From the IMG/VR virus record IMGVR_UViG_3300049026_000006, positions 1 to 51,905 of that record: 51,905 nucleotides of DNA; one strand, written 5' to 3'. This DNA is from a virus (lineage: Duplodnaviria; Caudoviricetes). The position numbers were made by a program, and so were the translations under genes. A model generated the notes under the pieces. The model saw only the letters and a list, made by a program, of their open reading frames with translations, did not search any database and was not told the DNA's origin. How positions within the stretch are numbered: the first letter of the stretch is position 1; the number at the start of each line of letters is the position of its first letter. This document shows positions 2,621 through 39,616 of the stretch, one piece after another.

Positions 2621-3784
2621 TTACACGGTGACCGTGATCGTCGCGGTGTCGGTCTTGGTGCCGTCTGCCACGCTGGTGGCGGTGATGACCGCAGTACCGG
2701 CCGATACGCCTGTGACCAGGCCGGAGCTGTTCACGGTCGCCACGCTCGGGGTTGCGCTGGACCAGGTAACGGCCTGGCTCGCACCGATTGGCGCCACAAC
2801 GGCAGTCAGTTGCTCGGTCTCTGCAATCGCGATGGAGGCGGTGGCAGGCGTCACCGTCACGGAAGTTACGGCCGTTGGCGATACCAGGCGGGTGATGGTT
2901 GGGCTGATCTTGGCGACGGTGTAGTTCAGCGTCACCTCGATCAGGTCGCGCTTGCCGCCGCTCGGAAGCTCGCCATCCACCTCCACCGCGGGGAAGTTGA
3001 AGGTGTACTTGTTGCCCAGGGCGTCGGTGATTGGAAAAACAACCGAGATCGGCAAGCGAGTGAAGGTCTTCTTCCAGATCTCCCATGCGCGCTTCGACCA
3101 GGCCAGGGTGATGGTGCCGGTGATGGCCGCCTCGGTGGCGATCTGGGCGCCCGGGCCGAGCTTGGTGTTCCCGATGCAGCGCTGGGCCTGGAGGCTGTTG
3201 TCCAGATTGATGGTCATTGCCGATACGCAGGCCACGCCTTCCAGGCTTTCGCCATCAACCATCACCGTGCCGACATGGTTGTTCGACAGGAATGGCGTGG
3301 TGGTGGGCGCGTTCGGAGACACGACAATCGGGTCTTCACTGTCGGCGTAGTCCAGACAGGCCATGTTGAACGTGGTCGTCACCTTGCCGTCGGACGGGAT
3401 GTCCAGGGCGAAGGTCGACACGTGGGCGCCCTTGAACACGCTGTACACGCCGACGTCGTTGTAGCCCTTGGCGATGCTGTAGGTGCTGCGGATATCCCCC
3501 ACAGACAGCACGTCGCCGGTCCAGGCGCCATAGAAGGCAGCCTCCAGCAACTGATCGAACGACGCGAACGAGAACTCTGCCGTCAAGTCGCCGCCGATAT
3601 CGGTGCTGGTGGCGACAGAGCCCTGGCTGATACGCGAGTCGGTGATCTCATCACTGACTGCGACGTTTACGGTGGGGGTCAGCGCGTTGCCAGTTAGGCG
3701 CAGCGTGTCCCAGGTGCCTGCCGGGGTAACGCCTGGCGTCACCTCTTTGATGATGTGACTTACAACCTTGGCTCCGCTCGACAT
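2621..3784 (-). CDS. Major tail tube protein with C-terminal Ig-like (Big_2) domain
   Basis: MSSGAKV...EVTPGVTP N-terminus of siphoviral tube proteins; C-terminal VTWSSATPSVATVNSSGLVTGVSAGTAVITAT Ig-like motif. Confidence 0.88.
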   Translation of the reverse strand: MSSGAKVVSHIIKEVTPGVTPAGTWDTLRLTGNALTPTVNVAVSDEITDSRISQGSVATSTDIGGDLTAEFSFASFDQLLEAAFYGAWTGDVLSVGDIRSTYSIAKGYNDVGVYSVFKGAHVSTFALDIPSDGKVTTTFNMACLDYADSEDPIVVSPNAPTTTPFLSNNHVGTVMVDGESLEGVACVSAMTINLDNSLQAQRCIGNTKLGPGAQIATEAAITGTITLAWSKRAWEIWKKTFTRLPISVVFPITDALGNKYTFNFPAVEVDGELPSGGKRDLIEVTLNYTVAKISPTITRLVSPTAVTSVTVTPATASIAIAETEQLTAVVAPIGASQAVTWSSATPSVATVNSSGLVTGVSAGTAVITATSVADGTKTDTATITVTV

Positions 3785-15794: not shown

Positions 15795-16000
15795 CCCTGA
15801 ATAGGTGCGCAGTCTTTCCCGCTGTCTGCCGAAGGCCTTCGCAACGTCGACGCCCCACTGCATCGATCTCGCCGCTCAAGTCTCGCGCCGCCCTGGAAGT
15901 CGGGTGTGAACAGGGTGCGCGGGCTGCCGGTGTTCTTTCGTGACGCGTGACTTCCGGCTATACCGCGTCCAGGCCTTCCCGAGGGCTGCCCTGGCTACAG
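15795..16000 (-). ncRNA. Putative structured RNA in the late leader
   Basis: No credible ORF; nested stems CCAGG/CCTGG, CGCGG/CCGCG, GCCGG/CCGGC, CCCTG/CAGGG, TCGATGC/GCGTCGA; ends in GACAGCGGGAAAGACTGCGCAC. Confidence 0.45.
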
Positions 16001-22872: not shown

Positions 22873-23082
22873 TTAAGCGGCAGATTTCTTGGTCGAGCTG
22901 GCAGGGTCATCCAGGCGGCTCGCGGTGAGCTTCCCGGCGGATTCCTTTTCCAACACGCATTGCATTGGGTAGGAGAAGCCGCCGGCGGATCGGCACTGCG
23001 AGACGCGGCTCCGGGTGACGCTTAATGCATCACCGATGGCGCCGGGCGTACCGAAGAATTGCAGGGCTTGGTCATAGGTCAT
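22873..23082 (-). CDS. cro: Cro repressor
   Basis: 69-aa HTH, MTYDQALQFFGTPGAIGDALSVTRSRVSQ; divergent from cI. Confidence 0.85.
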   Translation of the reverse strand: MTYDQALQFFGTPGAIGDALSVTRSRVSQCRSAGGFSYPMQCVLEKESAGKLTASRLDDPASSTKKSAA

Positions 23083-23175: not shown

Positions 23176-23889
23176 ATGAATTTCAGCGAACGAGTTAAAG
23201 AGCGCATGGCGGCCTTGGGGCTACGTGCGACCGATATAAGCGAACGGACAGGCGTCTCTCGGACGACCGTCTCCTTTTGGCTGTCTGGAACGAACGGGGC
23301 GAAGGGGAAGAACCTTTTGTCCCTGGCTAAGGCCCTGGACTGCTCGCCGGAGTGGCTATCGAGTGGAGCGGAGCCGGTGCAGCCCGGGAGGCAAGTCAAC
23401 CTGTCCTCTATTGATGCGTGGGATGACGAAACTCCGCTCGATGACGACGAGGTCTACGTACCATTTCTTGAGGAGGTCGAACTGGCTGCAGGTTCTGGCC
23501 GCTTCGCGATTGAGGAAAGCGACAGCGCCAGGCTGCGGTTCTATAAGAAGGACTTGCGCAACAACAATGTGCAGTTCAGCAACGCCAAGTGCGTCATGGT
23601 CAGCGGCAACAGCATGGTCCCCGTCCTGCGCGACGGTGCCACCGTAGGTATCAACGTCGGCAAGAACTCTTTGCGCGACGTGGTGGACGGCGAGATGTAC
23701 GCGATCAACCATAACGGCCAGCTTCGCGTGAAGCAGCTATACCGGCTTCCAACGGGGATTCGCCTGCGTAGCTTCAACCGCGATGAGCATCCCGATGAGG
23801 ACTACACCTTCCAGGATATCCAGGATCAGCAGATCGTGATCCTCGGCCATGTCTTCTGGTGGGCGATGTATTCCCGCAGCCCTTCGTAA
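23176..23889 (+). CDS. cI: CI repressor (HTH plus S24 autopeptidase)
   Basis: N-terminal HTH, AG cleavage site (LAAGSG), catalytic GNSM and RVK. Confidence 0.95.
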   Translation: MNFSERVKERMAALGLRATDISERTGVSRTTVSFWLSGTNGAKGKNLLSLAKALDCSPEWLSSGAEPVQPGRQVNLSSIDAWDDETPLDDDEVYVPFLEEVELAAGSGRFAIEESDSARLRFYKKDLRNNNVQFSNAKCVMVSGNSMVPVLRDGATVGINVGKNSLRDVVDGEMYAINHNGQLRVKQLYRLPTGIRLRSFNRDEHPDEDYTFQDIQDQQIVILGHVFWWAMYSRSPS

Positions 23890-23939: not shown

Positions 23940-24013
23940 AATTCAGGCTTCTAAACTTTTTGTTAAGTTTTCTAAAAATAAGGCTTGACCAATCTTGTTA
24001 AGTTTTCTAAATT
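23940..24013 (+). promoter_or_regulatory. OL operators (three sites) and PL promoter
   Basis: AATTCAG-GCTT-CTAAACT (23940) and TGTTAAG-TTTT-CTAAA (23961, 23996); PL is TTGACC-N17-TAAATT (23985..24013). Confidence 0.85.
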
Positions 24014-24069: not shown

Positions 24070-24381
24070 GCTCCACCCCTTGCCGGATTACCACCGGCCC
24101 AGATTCAAAGGCAGCGATGAACCGGCCTAAACGGTTCAGAGGGTTGGCAACTGACCCGGGCGTGCAGCGTAAAGCGCCAAGAACAGTTATCCAGCGGGAG
24201 AACAAGCCGAAAGGCCCGCGGCTGGAGGAACAACTTGATTGAGCCCGTACCGCGCCAGTAGCGCCGAAGGGACACGTCAAACACAGATGGCCCCCTGCTG
24301 TTTCAGGTCGGCCATCTGGCTTTACAAATGCCTCTCACACCCCGGGAGGTATTTGAAAGCCAAACAACGGAGCATGACGAA

Positions 24382-24561
24382 ATGGCCTTTAAGTCATTCA
24401 CTAAAGAAATCGCTGTCGAGCAGGCCCGCTACTTCAGCCATGCGGCAGTGTTTGCAGCAAAGCTCGGCAGTCTCCCGGCCACTATCGAAATGTGCCGCAA
24501 GCGCCGCGATGAATGGATGCGTGTTGCTCGCGGCGAGATTCGTCACCCCTTCTTCGCATAG
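24382..24561 (+). CDS. Small basic protein, first PL gene
   Basis: 59 aa with GGAG RBS; MAFKSFTKE...CRKRRDEWMRVAR. Confidence 0.55.
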   Translation: MAFKSFTKEIAVEQARYFSHAAVFAAKLGSLPATIEMCRKRRDEWMRVARGEIRHPFFA

Positions 24562-24624
24562 ACAACCAGCGCCACGACAGCCTGTCGTTAACTGCCCGAG
24601 CACCTGGTACTCCCCAGCACCAGG

Positions 24625-24752
24625 CCGCATCGGAGTGTGATCTGCCTGCACCTAAAAACATATGCCTCTCTTGGGGAGGCGGGTGATCTAGCAGGTTTCG
24701 ACCGGTAATCCGGACAGGCTACCCCGGACTGGCAGATCACACCCCGATGCGG
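24625..24752 (+). repeat. 22-bp inverted repeat enclosing an 84-nt structured loop
   Basis: CCGCATCGGAGTGTGATCTGCC / GGCAGATCACACCCCGATGCGG, 21 of 22 pairs. Confidence 0.85.
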
Positions 24753-24795
24753 ACGAAACTGCGGCCTATAACCGCCCACCTGCATCACCGCAACA

Positions 24796-24993
24796 CGCAG
24801 ATGAATGCCCGGGCTGACGGGCAAGTGTAAGACCTGAGGGATCGCGGGAATCGTGGCCGGTAGAGTGAGTAAGCGCCCAGATGGCCACGGCGAGTCCAAG
24901 AATAAGCGGCTGAAACCTTCGCCCCGGTGAAACTCCGGTGTCACTAAGGCCGCTAATAGTCATGCCGGGATCAGCTCCGGCCATCTGCGCCCA
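24796..24993 (+). ncRNA. tRNA-shaped ncRNA with large internal insert
   Basis: 8-bp acceptor CGCAGATG/CATCTGCG plus CCCA; 6-bp D-like stem (loop GGCTGA); 5-bp T-like stem (loop GATCAGCT); no anticodon arm. Confidence 0.6.
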
Positions 24994-24994
24994 T

Positions 24995-25097
24995 CGGCGA
25001 ATAGCTCAACCCGCATTGCGCAGGGTCAGCGCCAACCTGGTATTGGCGAGCTACCTTGATCTGGCACAAGCGCCGTGACAGCCGGGAAAGACCGCAC
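24995..25097 (+). ncRNA. Multi-stem RNA module ending in a GACAGCCGGGAAAGACCGCAC motif
   Basis: Nested stems CGGCG/CGCCG, TAGCTC/GAGCTA, ACCC/GGGT, CGCCAA/TTGGCG, CTTG/CAAG. Confidence 0.45.
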
Positions 25098-25118
25098 ACA
25101 CCCCAACCGGAGATCACC

Positions 25119-25289
25119 ATGCTCCTACTGATCCTGATCGGCGCAGCGCTCAGCCATGCGCGGCCAGAACCGCCACCTGATGACGGCCTGCCAACCGGTC
25201 CATTGCGCTTACACCGTGAGCGCTGGCGATGTACCGAGGGTCAGCGTTCGTTCTGGTGCGCGCTGCCCCGATCCAAATCCTCAAGCTGA
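25119..25289 (+). CDS. Small hypothetical protein with hydrophobic N-terminus
   Basis: GGAG RBS; MLLLILIGAALSH. Confidence 0.55.
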   Translation: MLLLILIGAALSHARPEPPPDDGLPTGPLRLHRERWRCTEGQRSFWCALPRSKSSS

Positions 25290-25439
25290 CGCTGCATCAT
25301 TCGAAAAGGCCTTTCTGTCCAGTTGGGCCTTTTCACTTCCCGACCAATCCCGCATGCACATGACACCGCGCCCAACGGCAACCAGCGGAAGGATCGTGTG
25401 CAGCCGGGATTTGTTGGATCAACCACAGAGGTATTTGCA

Positions 25440-38181: not shown

Positions 38182-38567
38182 ATGCAGAGATCGCGCTACT
38201 CCCGCGCTTCATCCGGGCGAAGCAGGCGCCGGCCTATCTCGGCATGTGCCGGGCGGTGTTCGACGCCGAGGTTCGCCCTCACGTCCACGAATTTCCCATC
38301 GGGGAGCGTGGCGTTGGGTTTGATCGGCAGGAGCTGGACGACTGGGCCTCGGCCTATGTTGAGGCAAAGTCCATTGATAAAAAGCGCGCCCCGGAGCAAC
38401 AATCGCCCCGCAGCGAGCGCCAGCAAGGAGATAAACCATGGCGCGAAAATCGATCACAGGCCTCTCCCAAAGGAAAGGTATCTGGCATATCGACAAGAAG
38501 ATCAACGGCGAAAGACTTTACGAATCTACTGGCACAACTGACCGACAGGAAGCAGAGCGGTACCTGA
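38178..38567 (+). CDS. xis: Excisionase / AlpA-like recombination directionality factor
   Basis: PRFIRAKQAPAYLGMCRAVFD...FDRQELDDW winged-helix pattern; upstream of and overlapping int. Confidence 0.7.
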   Translation: MNAEIALLPRFIRAKQAPAYLGMCRAVFDAEVRPHVHEFPIGERGVGFDRQELDDWASAYVEAKSIDKKRAPEQQSPRSERQQGDKPWRENRSQASPKGKVSGISTRRSTAKDFTNLLAQLTDRKQSGT

Positions 38568-39616
38568 TCTTCAGGCTGGAGCAGATCCGGCAACAGAAGG
38601 TTTACGGCGTCCGAGAGGTGCGAACGTGGCGGGATGCCGCGATGCGATTCCTTGTAGAAATCAAGGATCAACCCTCGTTCAAGCTTTCCGCGCATCACAT
38701 CGCCCAGCTGGACCCGTTCATCGGCGACATGCCGCTGACCCACATTGATGACCAGGCCCTGGCGCCTTTCATCAAGGACAGGCTGGCGACAAAGAAGCTG
38801 GAGAGCGGGAAGGTAAAGAAGGGAGTCAGCAACAGAACGGTGAATATCTCGATCGAGCGTGTGGTTCGGGTTTTATCGTTGTGTGCCAGGAAGTGGCGAG
38901 ACGATGAGCGCAGGCCGTGGCTGGACAGCGTGCCGATGCTCACGAAGCTGGAGGAGAAGAAATCGAGCAGGAAGCCCTACCCGATGTCCTGGGCAGAGCA
39001 ATCGATTCTCTTTGCGGAATTGCCGGCTCACCTGCAAACGATGGCGCTGTTCAAGGTGAACACCGGCACCAGGGAGCAGGAGGTCTGCAAGCTGAGGTGG
39101 GATTGGGAAATTTCGGTACCTGAGCTGGGCACCAGTGTGTTTCTGATCCCCGCCGACTTCGGCGGACGCCATGCACGATCCGGCGTGAAGAACGGCGACG
39201 AGCGACTGGTTGTGCTCAACAACGTGGCGAAGTCGATCATCGAGCAGCAGCGGGGCCTGAGCAAGGAATGGGTTTTTCCTTACAACGGCACCGCAATGCA
39301 CCGGATGAACGATTCGGCATGGAAGAAGGCGCGGGTGAGAGCGGCGAAACTCTGGCAGGAGGAAAACCTTCGCCCCGCTCACCCTGGGTATGCATCCATC
39401 AGGATCCATGACCTCAAACACACGTTTGGCCGTCGGCTCCGCGCAGCAGGCGTCACCGAGGAAGATCGTAAAGCTCTTTTGGGCCACAAGAACGGCAGCA
39501 TCACCAGTCACTACTCGGGCGCCGAGCTCGGGCATTTGATTGAAGCTGCGAACATGGTATCAGCAACCGATTCGCGTGGACCGGTGCTGACAATCTTGAA
39601 GAGGAAACAGGCGTGA
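38438..39616 (+). CDS. int: Tyrosine integrase
   Basis: NTGTREQE (R), HDLKHTFG, LLGH, SHYS (Y); adjacent to attP. Confidence 0.95.
   Translation: MARKSITGLSQRKGIWHIDKKINGERLYESTGTTDRQEAERYLIFRLEQIRQQKVYGVREVRTWRDAAMRFLVEIKDQPSFKLSAHHIAQLDPFIGDMPLTHIDDQALAPFIKDRLATKKLESGKVKKGVSNRTVNISIERVVRVLSLCARKWRDDERRPWLDSVPMLTKLEEKKSSRKPYPMSWAEQSILFAELPAHLQTMALFKVNTGTREQEVCKLRWDWEISVPELGTSVFLIPADFGGRHARSGVKNGDERLVVLNNVAKSIIEQQRGLSKEWVFPYNGTAMHRMNDSAWKKARVRAAKLWQEENLRPAHPGYASIRIHDLKHTFGRRLRAAGVTEEDRKALLGHKNGSITSHYSGAELGHLIEAANMVSATDSRGPVLTILKRKQA

What the first reader, a model, noticed from the sequence alone, without database searches (positions are those of the whole stretch)
24796..24993. CCA-ended tRNA-shaped RNA with kissing D/T loops and a 140-nt insert replacing the anticodon arm
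Seen: an 8-bp acceptor-like stem (CGCAGATG/CATCTGCG) followed by C-CCA; an AA linker; a 6-bp D-like stem TGCCCG/CGGGCA with loop GGCTGA; and a 5-bp T-like stem GCCGG/CCGGC stacked directly on the acceptor, with loop GATCAGCT. The loops are complementary (GCTGA/TCAGC, extendable by a G-U pair), which would lock the elbow by base pairing. Between the arms lie 140 nt with their own stems (CGTGGCC/GGCCACG, AGCGGC/GCCGCT). Known: 8/5 acceptor-T geometry with a 6-bp D stem is typical of bacterial tRNA-Sec, and tmRNA, YrlA and P1 c4 RNA use tRNA-like scaffolds. This element lacks the TTCGA T-loop and the G3-U70 pair, so it is not a tRNA or tmRNA. Inference: a tRNA-mimic scaffold, probably matured by RNase P, presenting a cargo domain; possible roles are a decoy for anticodon nucleases or other defence RNases, or an antisense regulator.
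Basis: partly seen in the sequence, partly recalled or inferred. Interest (0 to 1): 0.85.

Follow-up and report, generated by a model that had tools for sequence, protein, structure and literature searches.

The report
Phage tRNA-shaped RNA with swappable insert
This is one copy of a widespread phage RNA family that matched no Rfam model: it folds like a tRNA whose elbow is closed by two pairing loops and whose anticodon arm is replaced by many different inserts, which suggests a natural scaffold for making stable small RNAs.

Summary
A covariance model built from 77 homologues scores the window copy at 54.4 bits (E 1e-11). It hits 46 of 151 Pseudomonas species genomes and 17 of 151 genomes of the enterobacterial family sampled. 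The D-like and T-like stems covary. Loop-loop pairing is kept with different letters in three lineages: GUCGA/UCGAC, UAGUC/GACUA and ACUGA/UCAGU. It is weakened in two subfamilies. The insert falls into at least 51 classes of about 32-170 nt. The window's class is itself conserved and covarying. No Rfam 15 family and no tRNA or tmRNA call fits. Copies lie in early-left leaders, between nutL and N in enterobacterial lambdoid phages such as Sf6, and inside tRNA gene clusters (D3, IME11). An 8-bp stem followed by CCA is not a family feature. Best reading (0.45): a tRNA-mimic chassis cut out by tRNA-processing enzymes that displays exchangeable cargo. Processing and function are not shown. First readers of this scan noted the same shape on other DNA.

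The parts
24796..24803 (+). P1 5' strand (acceptor-like terminal stem, 8 bp in this copy)
   Evidence: Sequence. P1 covaries across the family (GCAGATG, TTGGATG, TGTGGTG, TGCGATG, AGAGATG, GATCTG and others).
24804..24805 (+). AA linker between P1 and the D-like hairpin
   Evidence: It is AA in all 77 rows of A2, but the scan patterns fixed it there. Among model hits it is mostly AA, with rare CA or AC.
24806..24823 (+). P2, the D-like hairpin: 6-bp stem with loop GGCUGA (24812-24817)
   Evidence: Three inner stem pairs show changes on both sides. The loop is GGCTGA in 128 of 133 copies when left free in the scan.
24824..24963 (+). 140-nt insert (cargo domain) with its own conserved helices: 24839-24845/24890-24897, 24852-24858/24883-24889, 24905-24911/24948-24954, and an inner hairpin around 24920-24940
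   Evidence: RNAalifold on 29 copies of this insert class: 14 of 40 predicted pairs keep pairing through changes on both sides, including pairs inside the insert. Across the family there are at least 51 unrelated insert classes.
24964..24981 (+). P4, the T-like hairpin: 5-bp stem GCCGG/CCGGC with loop GAUCAGCU (24969-24976), flush with the P1 3' strand
   Evidence: Three of its pairs show changes on both sides. Further stem variants appear.
24982..24989 (+). P1 3' strand
24990..24993 (+). C-CCA tail, present here but not conserved as CCA across the family (tails are C-rich)
24625..24752 (+). Upstream 'module B': a 22-bp-armed hairpin whose arms match the long P1 of the first tandem copy in other prophages. 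Its interior lacks both hairpins.
   Evidence: (I1), compared with L236, L235, L231, L225 and L227.
24561..24600 (+). Conserved leader segment ('module A') shared with many Pseudomonas phages
23176..23889 (+). CI-like repressor gene. It fixes the element in the early-left (+) transcription unit.
   Evidence: PHROG 4, E 4e-52. The Cro-like gene 22873-23082 (-) matches PHROG 409.

Best explanation
The element is one member of a large phage-borne family of structured RNAs read from the + strand. A terminal stem (P1, at least 7 bp) closes a four-way junction. A 2-nt linker leads to a 6-bp hairpin with loop GGCUGA. A 5-bp hairpin with loop (A)GAUCAGC(A) stacks directly on P1. The two loops base-pair with each other over 5 bp and so close a tRNA-like elbow. 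Where a tRNA has its anticodon and variable arms, the family carries an exchangeable insert. Most likely mechanism (inferred, not shown): the element is transcribed inside long phage transcripts, namely early-left leaders, late leaders and tRNA operons. The 12-13-bp acceptor/T-like stack with its elbow is recognised like a pre-tRNA. RNase P cuts at the 5' side, and downstream cleavage or exonucleases trim the 3' side. This would both punctuate the transcript (for example separating nutL RNA from N mRNA) and release a stable small RNA that displays the cargo domain. What the cargo does is unknown. In the window's class it is a conserved, covarying 140-nt domain shared by Pseudomonas and enterobacterial phages.
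For: The family is real. R1 was built from 77 sequences. It gives one match in the window at E 1.1e-11, matches in 46 of 151 Pseudomonas genomes and matches in 17 of 151 genomes of the enterobacterial family sampled. On A2, 98.6% of cells pair, 10 of 22 pairs change on both sides, and 0 of 500 shuffles reach this; slid controls pair at 24-42%. Loop-loop pairing: 108 of 142 distinct copies have at least 5 contiguous complementary loop bases. Compensated variants are GGUCGA/AGAUCGACA in vB_Pae_CF23a, CUAGUCA/AGCUAGACUA in Sf6 and GACUGA/AUCAGU in L171. tRNA-like connectors (a 2-nt linker, a 5-bp P4, no nucleotide between P4 and P1) hold throughout. The element sits among tRNA genes on the same strand in D3, between tRNA-Met and tRNA-Gly, and in IME11, in a 2-kb tRNA gap. 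In L117 a tRNA-Asn starts 13 nt downstream. Overall 12 of 197 elements lie within 1 kb of a tRNA, against 2.2% of locus bases. N-CC directly after the maximal P1 is the commonest tail register: 52 of 61 enterobacterial-type and 34 of 76 Pseudomonas-type contexts. The + strand is favoured by 17 G-U against 7 A-C cells. The cargo is structured. The same interior, about 95% identical, occurs with a fully compensated different P1 in unrelated phages. Contigs from four RNA libraries cover the element, but contigs cannot show transcription or RNA ends.
Against: No RNA ends are known. The RNA-library contigs run across the 5' boundary and may derive from DNA. No promoter-like or terminator-like site flanks the element, so a discrete RNA requires processing that has not been shown. 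P1 is often much longer than an acceptor stem: about 14-16 bp with a bulged A in the nutL-N leaders and 17 bp in first tandem copies. That would leave no free 3' tail before trimming. Both loops are nearly invariant in sequence while the stems vary freely, which suggests a constraint beyond mutual pairing. Two subfamilies weaken the kiss: GACUGA/AGACCAGCA has 3 contiguous complementary loop bases (12 distinct copies; 12 of the 38 model hits), and GGCUGA/GUACGCA has 2 (4 copies). The Rfam tRNA model gives no signal at E<=10. The fold z-score of the window copy is -1.46.
Confidence: 0.45

Rival explanations
1. It is a cis-acting leader structure. The closed domain sits between nutL and the ribosome-binding site of the first early gene and controls that gene's expression. 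It could bring nutL and the RBS together, act as an RNase III or RNase E processing site, or act as a 5' stabiliser. This would be the functional counterpart of the RNase III-sensitive stem in the lambda N leader (recalled, not read here). The interior would then be free to vary.
For: In enterobacterial lambdoid prophages the element ends 26-32 nt before ORFs with N-type arginine-rich N termini, including a lambda-N-like sequence, and nutL boxA/boxB lie about 18 nt upstream. Lambda holds a different sequence of similar length at the same place, and no R1 match scored better than E 2.3 in the lambda locus. The outer P1 is long.
Against: The same element occurs inside tRNA clusters of D3 and of the virulent N4-like phage IME11, and in other contexts (Tyrion, Bas77) with no N gene next to it. 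The strongly conserved kissing-loop scaffold and the covarying cargo are more than a spacer needs.
Confidence: 0.2
2. It is an antisense or immunity-type regulator like P1 c4 or P4 CI RNA. The scaffold is processed, and the variable insert base-pairs with phage or host transcripts, giving each class its own specificity.
For: The design, a conserved scaffold with a hypervariable insert in at least 51 classes, resembles specificity swapping. The element lies in the immunity and early region.
Against: No Rfam C4 match. In the window the longest complement of the insert to + strand transcripts is 11 nt. The 14-nt same-sense repeat at 39364 lies in a + strand ORF, and 6 of 100 shuffles reach 14 nt. 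Host targets were not tested.
Confidence: 0.08
3. It is a processive antitermination RNA, like put, that acts on RNA polymerase in cis.
For: It sits at the head of long operons (early-left leader; upstream of the lysis genes in D3). An earlier first-reader note on this window saw no recognisable N gene (e1-6299801, unchecked).
Against: The put RNA is about 70 nt with two stem-loops in a V shape and no closing stem (passages of PMC9378689). Enterobacterial carriers already have nutL and N. Usually there is one copy per phage. A hypervariable insert is unexpected for an RNA that contacts polymerase.
Confidence: 0.07
4. The complementary loops act between molecules, not within one. ROOL and GOLLD assemblies are a second comparison, known to me only from the abstract listed.
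For: Each molecule carries both partners of a 5-bp kiss. Tandem copies exist (L068, L124, L231, L235). The family occurs in phages and near tRNA genes.
Against: The stem lengths of P2 (6 bp, 5 in Sf6) and P4 (5 bp) are fixed and the junction is tRNA-like, which fits an intramolecular elbow. There are no data on oligomers.
Confidence: 0.05
5. It is a DNA-level element: a miniature inverted-repeat transposable element or a recombination cassette, with no RNA function.
For: Short inverted termini, no coding capacity, near-identical copies in unrelated phages, and exchange boundaries inside P1.
Against: The termini vary in sequence but stay complementary, whereas a transposase site would keep its sequence. 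Internal stems and loops covary with G-U tolerated. There are only 1-2 copies per genome, always in transcribed non-coding slots and co-oriented with neighbouring genes.
Confidence: 0.05

Closest known systems
Phage T4 stable RNAs rnaC and rnaD (species 1 and 2), encoded in the T4 tRNA cluster
   Same: Small stable phage RNAs of unknown function that sit among tRNA genes. T4 rnaC has an acceptor-like end pairing, a T arm and a large internal insertion.
   Different: T4 rnaC carries a canonical T arm (GGUUCGAAUCC). The present family has GAUCAGC and a Watson-Crick loop-loop kiss. R1 finds nothing in the T4 cluster locus (L217). That RNase P processes the T4 RNAs is recalled, not tested here.
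P1/P7 c4 and P4 CI antisense RNAs (Rfam C4 family)
   Same: Phage regulatory RNAs cut out of longer immunity-region transcripts, with an acceptor-like stem. Their processing by RNase P is recalled.
   Different: No Rfam match. In c4 the loops pair with mRNA targets; here the loops pair with each other, and no target was found in the window.
Bacterial Y-RNA-like YrlA and other tRNA mimics (tmRNA tRNA-like domain, MALAT1 mascRNA)
   Same: A tRNA-like module attached to another functional domain. In mascRNA the tRNA-like fold serves as an RNase P processing signal within a long transcript (recalled).
   Different: Those mimics keep canonical T and D loop sequences. In YrlA the 5'/3' ends form the protein-binding stem rather than the acceptor (recalled; only the abstract of PMC4201824 was seen, in the listing). 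No Rfam hit here.
Lambda N-leader between nutL and the N start
   Same: Same genomic slot in lambdoid phages.
   Different: The lambda sequence is unrelated, and no R1 match scored better than E 2.3 in the lambda locus with filters off. Its RNase III role is recalled, not read here.
HK022 put RNA
   Same: A structured RNA at the start of the early-left transcript of a lambdoid phage.
   Different: It has two stem-loops, about 70 nt, a V shape, no closing helix, no loop-loop pairing and no insert (passages of PMC9378689).
Synthetic 'tRNA scaffold' for recombinant RNA expression
   Same: Cargo RNA replaces the anticodon arm of a tRNA chassis so that the cell processes and stabilises it (recalled).
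   Different: That scaffold is an engineered real tRNA. This is a natural non-tRNA mimic.

Membership tests
tRNA | Recognised as a cloverleaf tRNA by tRNA detectors | tested here: not met
   ARAGORN found 0 genes in the window. The Rfam tRNA model gave no match at E<=10 in 24300-25400.
tRNA | Anticodon arm and canonical T loop (T-psi-C-R-A) and D loop | tested here: not met
   A 140-nt insert stands in place of the anticodon arm. The loops are GGCUGA and GAUCAGCU.
tRNA | Acceptor stem stacked on a 5-bp T stem with no linker, and a 2-nt acceptor-D linker | tested here: met
   8 bp plus 5 bp, AA linker, 0 nt between P4 and P1. The same connectors hold across the family.
tmRNA | tRNA-Ala-like domain with a G3-U70 pair, plus a tag reading frame | tested here: not met
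   ARAGORN found no tmRNA. The third P1 pair is C-G. No Rfam match.
C4 / CI antisense RNA (Rfam) | Match to the covariance model, and loops complementary to nearby target sites | tested here: not met
   No match. No complementarity in the window beyond chance.
HK022 put RNA | Two adjacent stem-loops of about 70 nt without a closing helix | tested here: not met
   The architecture differs: a closing P1, a four-way junction and an insert. Compared against the description in PMC9378689.
Kissing-loop cloverleaf family defined here (model R1) | P1, 2-nt linker, 6-bp hairpin with loop GRCUGA, variable insert, 5-bp hairpin with a loop containing UCAGC flush with P1, and the two loops complementary | tested here: met
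   54.4 bits, E 1.1e-11. All features were read.
RNase P substrate | Cleavage by RNase P at the 5' end of P1 | not testable with these tools
   Only indirect evidence: tRNA-like stack, C-rich 3' tail and co-location with tRNA genes.

The most novel reading that the evidence does not exclude
Phages carry a natural 'tRNA-scaffold display system'. In this reading a universal chassis, not derived from a tRNA, mimics the tRNA acceptor/T stack and elbow through a Watson-Crick loop-loop kiss. That hijacks the host tRNA maturation machinery to excise and stabilise any of dozens of swappable RNA cargo domains. The cargos would act as RNA effectors (host take-over, counter-defence decoys or regulators) made from the very first transcript without translation. 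Cassettes would be exchanged between unrelated temperate and virulent phages by recombination in the conserved arms.
Probability: 0.25. Interest if true: 0.9.

Novelty: new variant of a known kind. Interest (0 to 1): 0.78.

Why it matters
If this holds, it adds a common structured RNA family to phage biology. The family was found in about a third of the Pseudomonas species genomes sampled and in classical coliphage and Shigella phage leaders such as Sf6. It matched no Rfam 15 family, and six literature searches turned up no description. It would be a natural precedent for the engineered tRNA scaffold. It offers a defined kissing-loop elbow for structural study. It also provides a catalogue of at least 51 cargo RNA domains whose functions, possibly including anti-defence roles, become directly testable in tractable phages (Sf6, mEp043, mEp213, D3). 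Finally, it revises the picture of the nutL-N leader in lambdoid phages.

Tried and rejected
Known families. Rfam at gathering threshold on the window gave only Proteo-phage-1 at 15922-16000. Rfam at E<=10 on 24300-25400 gave only a chance mir-26 match. Rfam on 5 and then 20 homologous loci gave tRNAs, Proteo-phage-1 and int-alpA, but nothing over the element or its cargos.

Thermodynamics. The fold z-score is -1.46, so stability alone is not informative. The D3 copy does not fold to the scaffold as its MFE structure (z +1.43).

Classical phages. R1 found no match at E<=0.1 with default filters in phi80, P22, HK97 or 933W. In the lambda locus no match scored better than E 2.3. Divergent variants could have been missed: the Sf6 copy scored only 20.1 bits with filters off.

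Antisense targets. Nothing beyond chance was found in the window.

Public reads. Four RNA-library runs were laid on the region. All are contigs. They cover the element but give no ends, no strand and no proof of transcription. Parts without cover, and the small word shares, are not used as evidence.

E. coli genomes. BLAST finds the 5' arm in 70 of 5426 complete genomes, none of them annotated. BLAST sensitivity for so short a motif is low.

Literature. Six searches found no description. Passages of PMC9378689 and of preprint 10.64898/2026.05.13.724894 were read; the preprint on Pas sRNAs is unrelated. Supplements are closed and were not seen; lists of candidate RNA motifs in supplements of motif-discovery papers could hold this family.

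Method notes. A first loop-extraction script based on MFE sub-folds was too noisy and was replaced. P1 pairing in A2 is 100% by construction, because I selected copies with a perfect 7-nt complement. P1 covariation should therefore be judged from the model hits.

Full report
WHAT IS IN THE WINDOW. The window is a phage record whose noncoding stretch matches only Pseudomonas phages by name (20 of 21 records). A CI-like repressor gene lies at 23176-23889 on the + strand (PHROG 4, E 4e-52). A Cro-like gene at 22873-23082 and an Ant-like gene lie on the - strand. The element is 0.9 kb downstream of cI on the same strand, inside a 760-nt stretch (24562-25322) that has no credible gene. The only promoter-like site nearby is at 23985-24013, and no terminator-like site flanks the element. 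ARAGORN calls no tRNA or tmRNA in the window. Rfam 15 gives no match at gathering threshold or at E<=10. The MFE fold reproduces the proposed scaffold but is not significantly stable (z -1.46), so the case rests on comparative evidence.

A LARGE FAMILY. About half of the genome contigs were chance hits in unrelated phyla. In about 125 loci a T-like hairpin and the exact complement of the 5' terminal strand follow within 90-420 nt. I aligned 77 distinct copies (A2) and built covariance model R1. R1 finds exactly one copy in the window (24789-24996, 54.4 bits, E 1.1e-11). It matches 46 of 151 Pseudomonas species genomes and 17 of 151 genomes of the family of an Erwinia genome; one of these genomes holds 7 copies. 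BLAST and R1 also place the element in unrelated named phages: the N4-like Gamaleyavirus IME11, Bas77-80, HC6, Klebsiella BUCT610, Enterobacter phage Tyrion, P. aeruginosa vB_Pae_CF23a, phage D3, a Stx2c-converting phage, and, in a divergent form, Shigella phage Sf6.

STRUCTURE AND COVARIATION. On A2 with the named structure, 98.6% of cells pair. Ten of 22 pairs change on both sides, no shuffle out of 500 reaches this, and slid controls pair at 24-42%. P1 pairing in A2 is by construction, because I selected perfect complements. P2's four inner pairs and P4 were not constrained in that way. The model hits, which were not selected this way, show many P1 versions that all stay complementary: GCAGATG, TTGGATG, TGTGGTG, GATCTG, TAGGTG, GCAGACG, GGAGTG and others. 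They also show many P2 and P4 stem versions. G-U cells outnumber A-C cells 17 to 7. The element is co-oriented with the neighbouring N genes and tRNAs. The + strand is therefore the functional RNA strand.

THE KISSING LOOPS. When the D loop was left free in a scan, it was GGCTGA in 128 of 133 copies. Among 142 distinct aligned copies, 108 have at least 5 contiguous complementary loop bases, 11 have 4, 17 have 3 and 6 have fewer. Within the model-retrieved sets alone the figure is 43 of 67. Three lineages keep the pairing with other letters. vB_Pae_CF23a has GGUCGA with AGAUCGACA, in which two pairs are swapped. Sf6 has CUAGUCA with AGCUAGACUA, giving UAGUC/GACUA. L171 has GACUGA with AUCAGU. 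G-U intermediates also occur. Against the claim, a Pseudomonas subfamily with GACUGA/AGACCAGCA has only 3 contiguous complementary loop bases (12 distinct copies; 12 of the 38 model hits). A small class has T loop GUACGCA. Single copies have lost one arm (L239, L272). The pairing is therefore well supported but not absolute. The near-invariance of both loop sequences hints at an additional constraint, such as a partner that reads the kissing helix.

WHAT IS NOT A FAMILY FEATURE. P1 without bulges is 7 bp in 46, 8 bp in 22 and 9 bp or more in 69 of 137 distinct contexts. In enterobacterial leaders it extends to about 14-16 bp across a bulged A. In first tandem copies it is 17 bp. NCCA directly follows a 7-bp P1 in 13 of 137 contexts. 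It follows the maximal P1 in 52 of 137, mostly in one lineage where those letters also pair in the extended stem. Tails are C-rich, and N-CC is the commonest register. The '8/5 tRNA-Sec geometry' and the 'CCA end' describe this copy, not the family.

THE INSERT. The 128 unique elements fall into at least 51 unrelated insert classes, with total element lengths of 85-227 nt (one class is 419 nt). The MFE fold recovers the scaffold in nearly all of them. The window's class is not filler. In 29 copies from Pseudomonas-type and enterobacterial-type elements, 14 of 40 consensus pairs keep pairing through double changes, including pairs in two insert helices. Long single-stranded stretches are invariant. 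Near-identical interiors (about 95%) occur with fully compensated, different P1 stems in a temperate-phage contig and in IME11. Sf6 and L195 share the outer P1 and flanks but differ in everything from the inner 8 bp inwards. The exchangeable unit is therefore the inner P1 plus the interior.

GENOMIC SETTINGS. (i) Pseudomonas early-left leaders, as in the window, sometimes in tandem (L068, L124, L231, L235). (ii) In enterobacterial lambdoid prophages the element lies about 18 nt after nutL boxB and 26-32 nt before ORFs with N-type arginine-rich N termini, one of which I recognise from memory as lambda-N-like; no family search was run on these ORFs. Lambda itself has an unrelated sequence there. 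(iii) tRNA clusters: D3 between tRNA-Met and tRNA-Gly, upstream of the holin gene; IME11 in a 2-kb gap that holds tRNAs; L009 among four tRNAs; L117 with a tRNA-Asn 13 nt downstream. Overall 12 of 197 elements have a tRNA within 1 kb, against 2.2% of locus bases, and 11 of the 12 are on the same strand. Medea1 has a tRNA-Met, and no element, in the homologous gap. (iv) In L221 and L176 a Proteo-phage-1 RNA lies about 60 nt upstream.

INTERPRETATION. Shown: a conserved, covarying four-way-junction RNA with tRNA-like connectors, a loop-loop kiss and an exchangeable, sometimes structured, insert. It occurs in transcribed non-coding slots and next to tRNA genes. Inferred: recognition and excision by the tRNA maturation machinery, giving a stable RNA that displays the cargo and, as a by-product, cuts the leader. 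The main rival is a purely cis-acting leader role. That fits the nutL-N slot but not the tRNA-cluster copies or the conserved cargo. Antisense, antitermination, multimerisation and DNA-element readings are less likely, for the reasons given under rival explanations. The family is not a tRNA, tmRNA, C4 RNA, YrlA or put RNA by the tests that could be run here. The nearest analogues are the unexplained T4 stable RNAs in the T4 tRNA cluster and, in design, the engineered tRNA scaffold.

PRIOR NOTES AND LITERATURE. First-stage readers of this scan had flagged the same shape on other genomes, and the leader array on this window. These are unchecked notes. I confirmed the shared scaffold and the tandem copies independently. 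Six literature searches found no description. Supplementary files could not be read.

Noticed in passing
window 24625-24752: A hairpin with 22-nt arms (95% complementary). Its arm sequence matches the 17-bp P1 of the first tandem copy of the family in other Pseudomonas prophages (L236, L235, L231, L225, L227). Its interior here has neither the GGCUGA nor the GAUCAGC hairpin, so it may be a decayed copy or a different chassis in the same outer stem.
   Followed up: partly
window 24561-24600: A leader segment conserved in 21 phage records, 20 of them Pseudomonas phages (phiPSA1, MD8, phi1, phi2, Medea1 and others). It holds a small hairpin followed by GTTAAC. It may be a nut- or boxA-like signal. 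No test was run.
   Followed up: partly
window 24994-25289: The region after the element is conserved with phage Medea1. It ends in a small ORF (25119-25289, 56 aa, hydrophobic N terminus, GGAG before the ATG). Relatives of this ORF follow elements with different inserts in at least eight other loci. It has no PHROG match.
   Followed up: partly
window 15922-16000 (-); L221 1363-1443; L176 1855-1931: A Proteo-phage-1 RNA (Rfam RF03044, 72.9 bits) lies elsewhere in the window. In two other loci the same motif sits about 60 nt upstream of the element, so the two RNAs sometimes share an 'RNA island'. Their folds look unrelated.
   Followed up: partly
L001 (Medea1) 3584-3661: The homologous non-coding gap of phage Medea1 holds a tRNA-Met gene and no element. 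tRNA genes and this element therefore appear interchangeable occupants of the slot.
   Followed up: partly
L162 / L013 / L041 / L220 (186-nt insert class): One insert class contains a canonical tRNA T-arm sequence (GGGTTCGAATCCC) embedded in the cargo, as if part of a real tRNA had been captured.
   Followed up: no
G275 (enterobacterial-family genome): A single genome carries seven copies of the element at dispersed chromosomal positions, presumably in several prophages.
   Followed up: no
window 39364-39377: A 14-nt same-sense repeat of the most conserved cargo segment (AAACCTTCGCCCCG) lies inside a + strand ORF (38438-39616). Shuffles reach this length in 6 of 100 trials, so it is probably chance.
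   Followed up: yes
L214 (Bas77) 2085-2705; L257 (D3) 2176-2490: Annotated 'hypothetical protein' genes (Bas77_0056 and Bas77_0057 on the opposite strand; D3 orf86) overlap the element and may be mis-annotations of an RNA locus.
   Followed up: no
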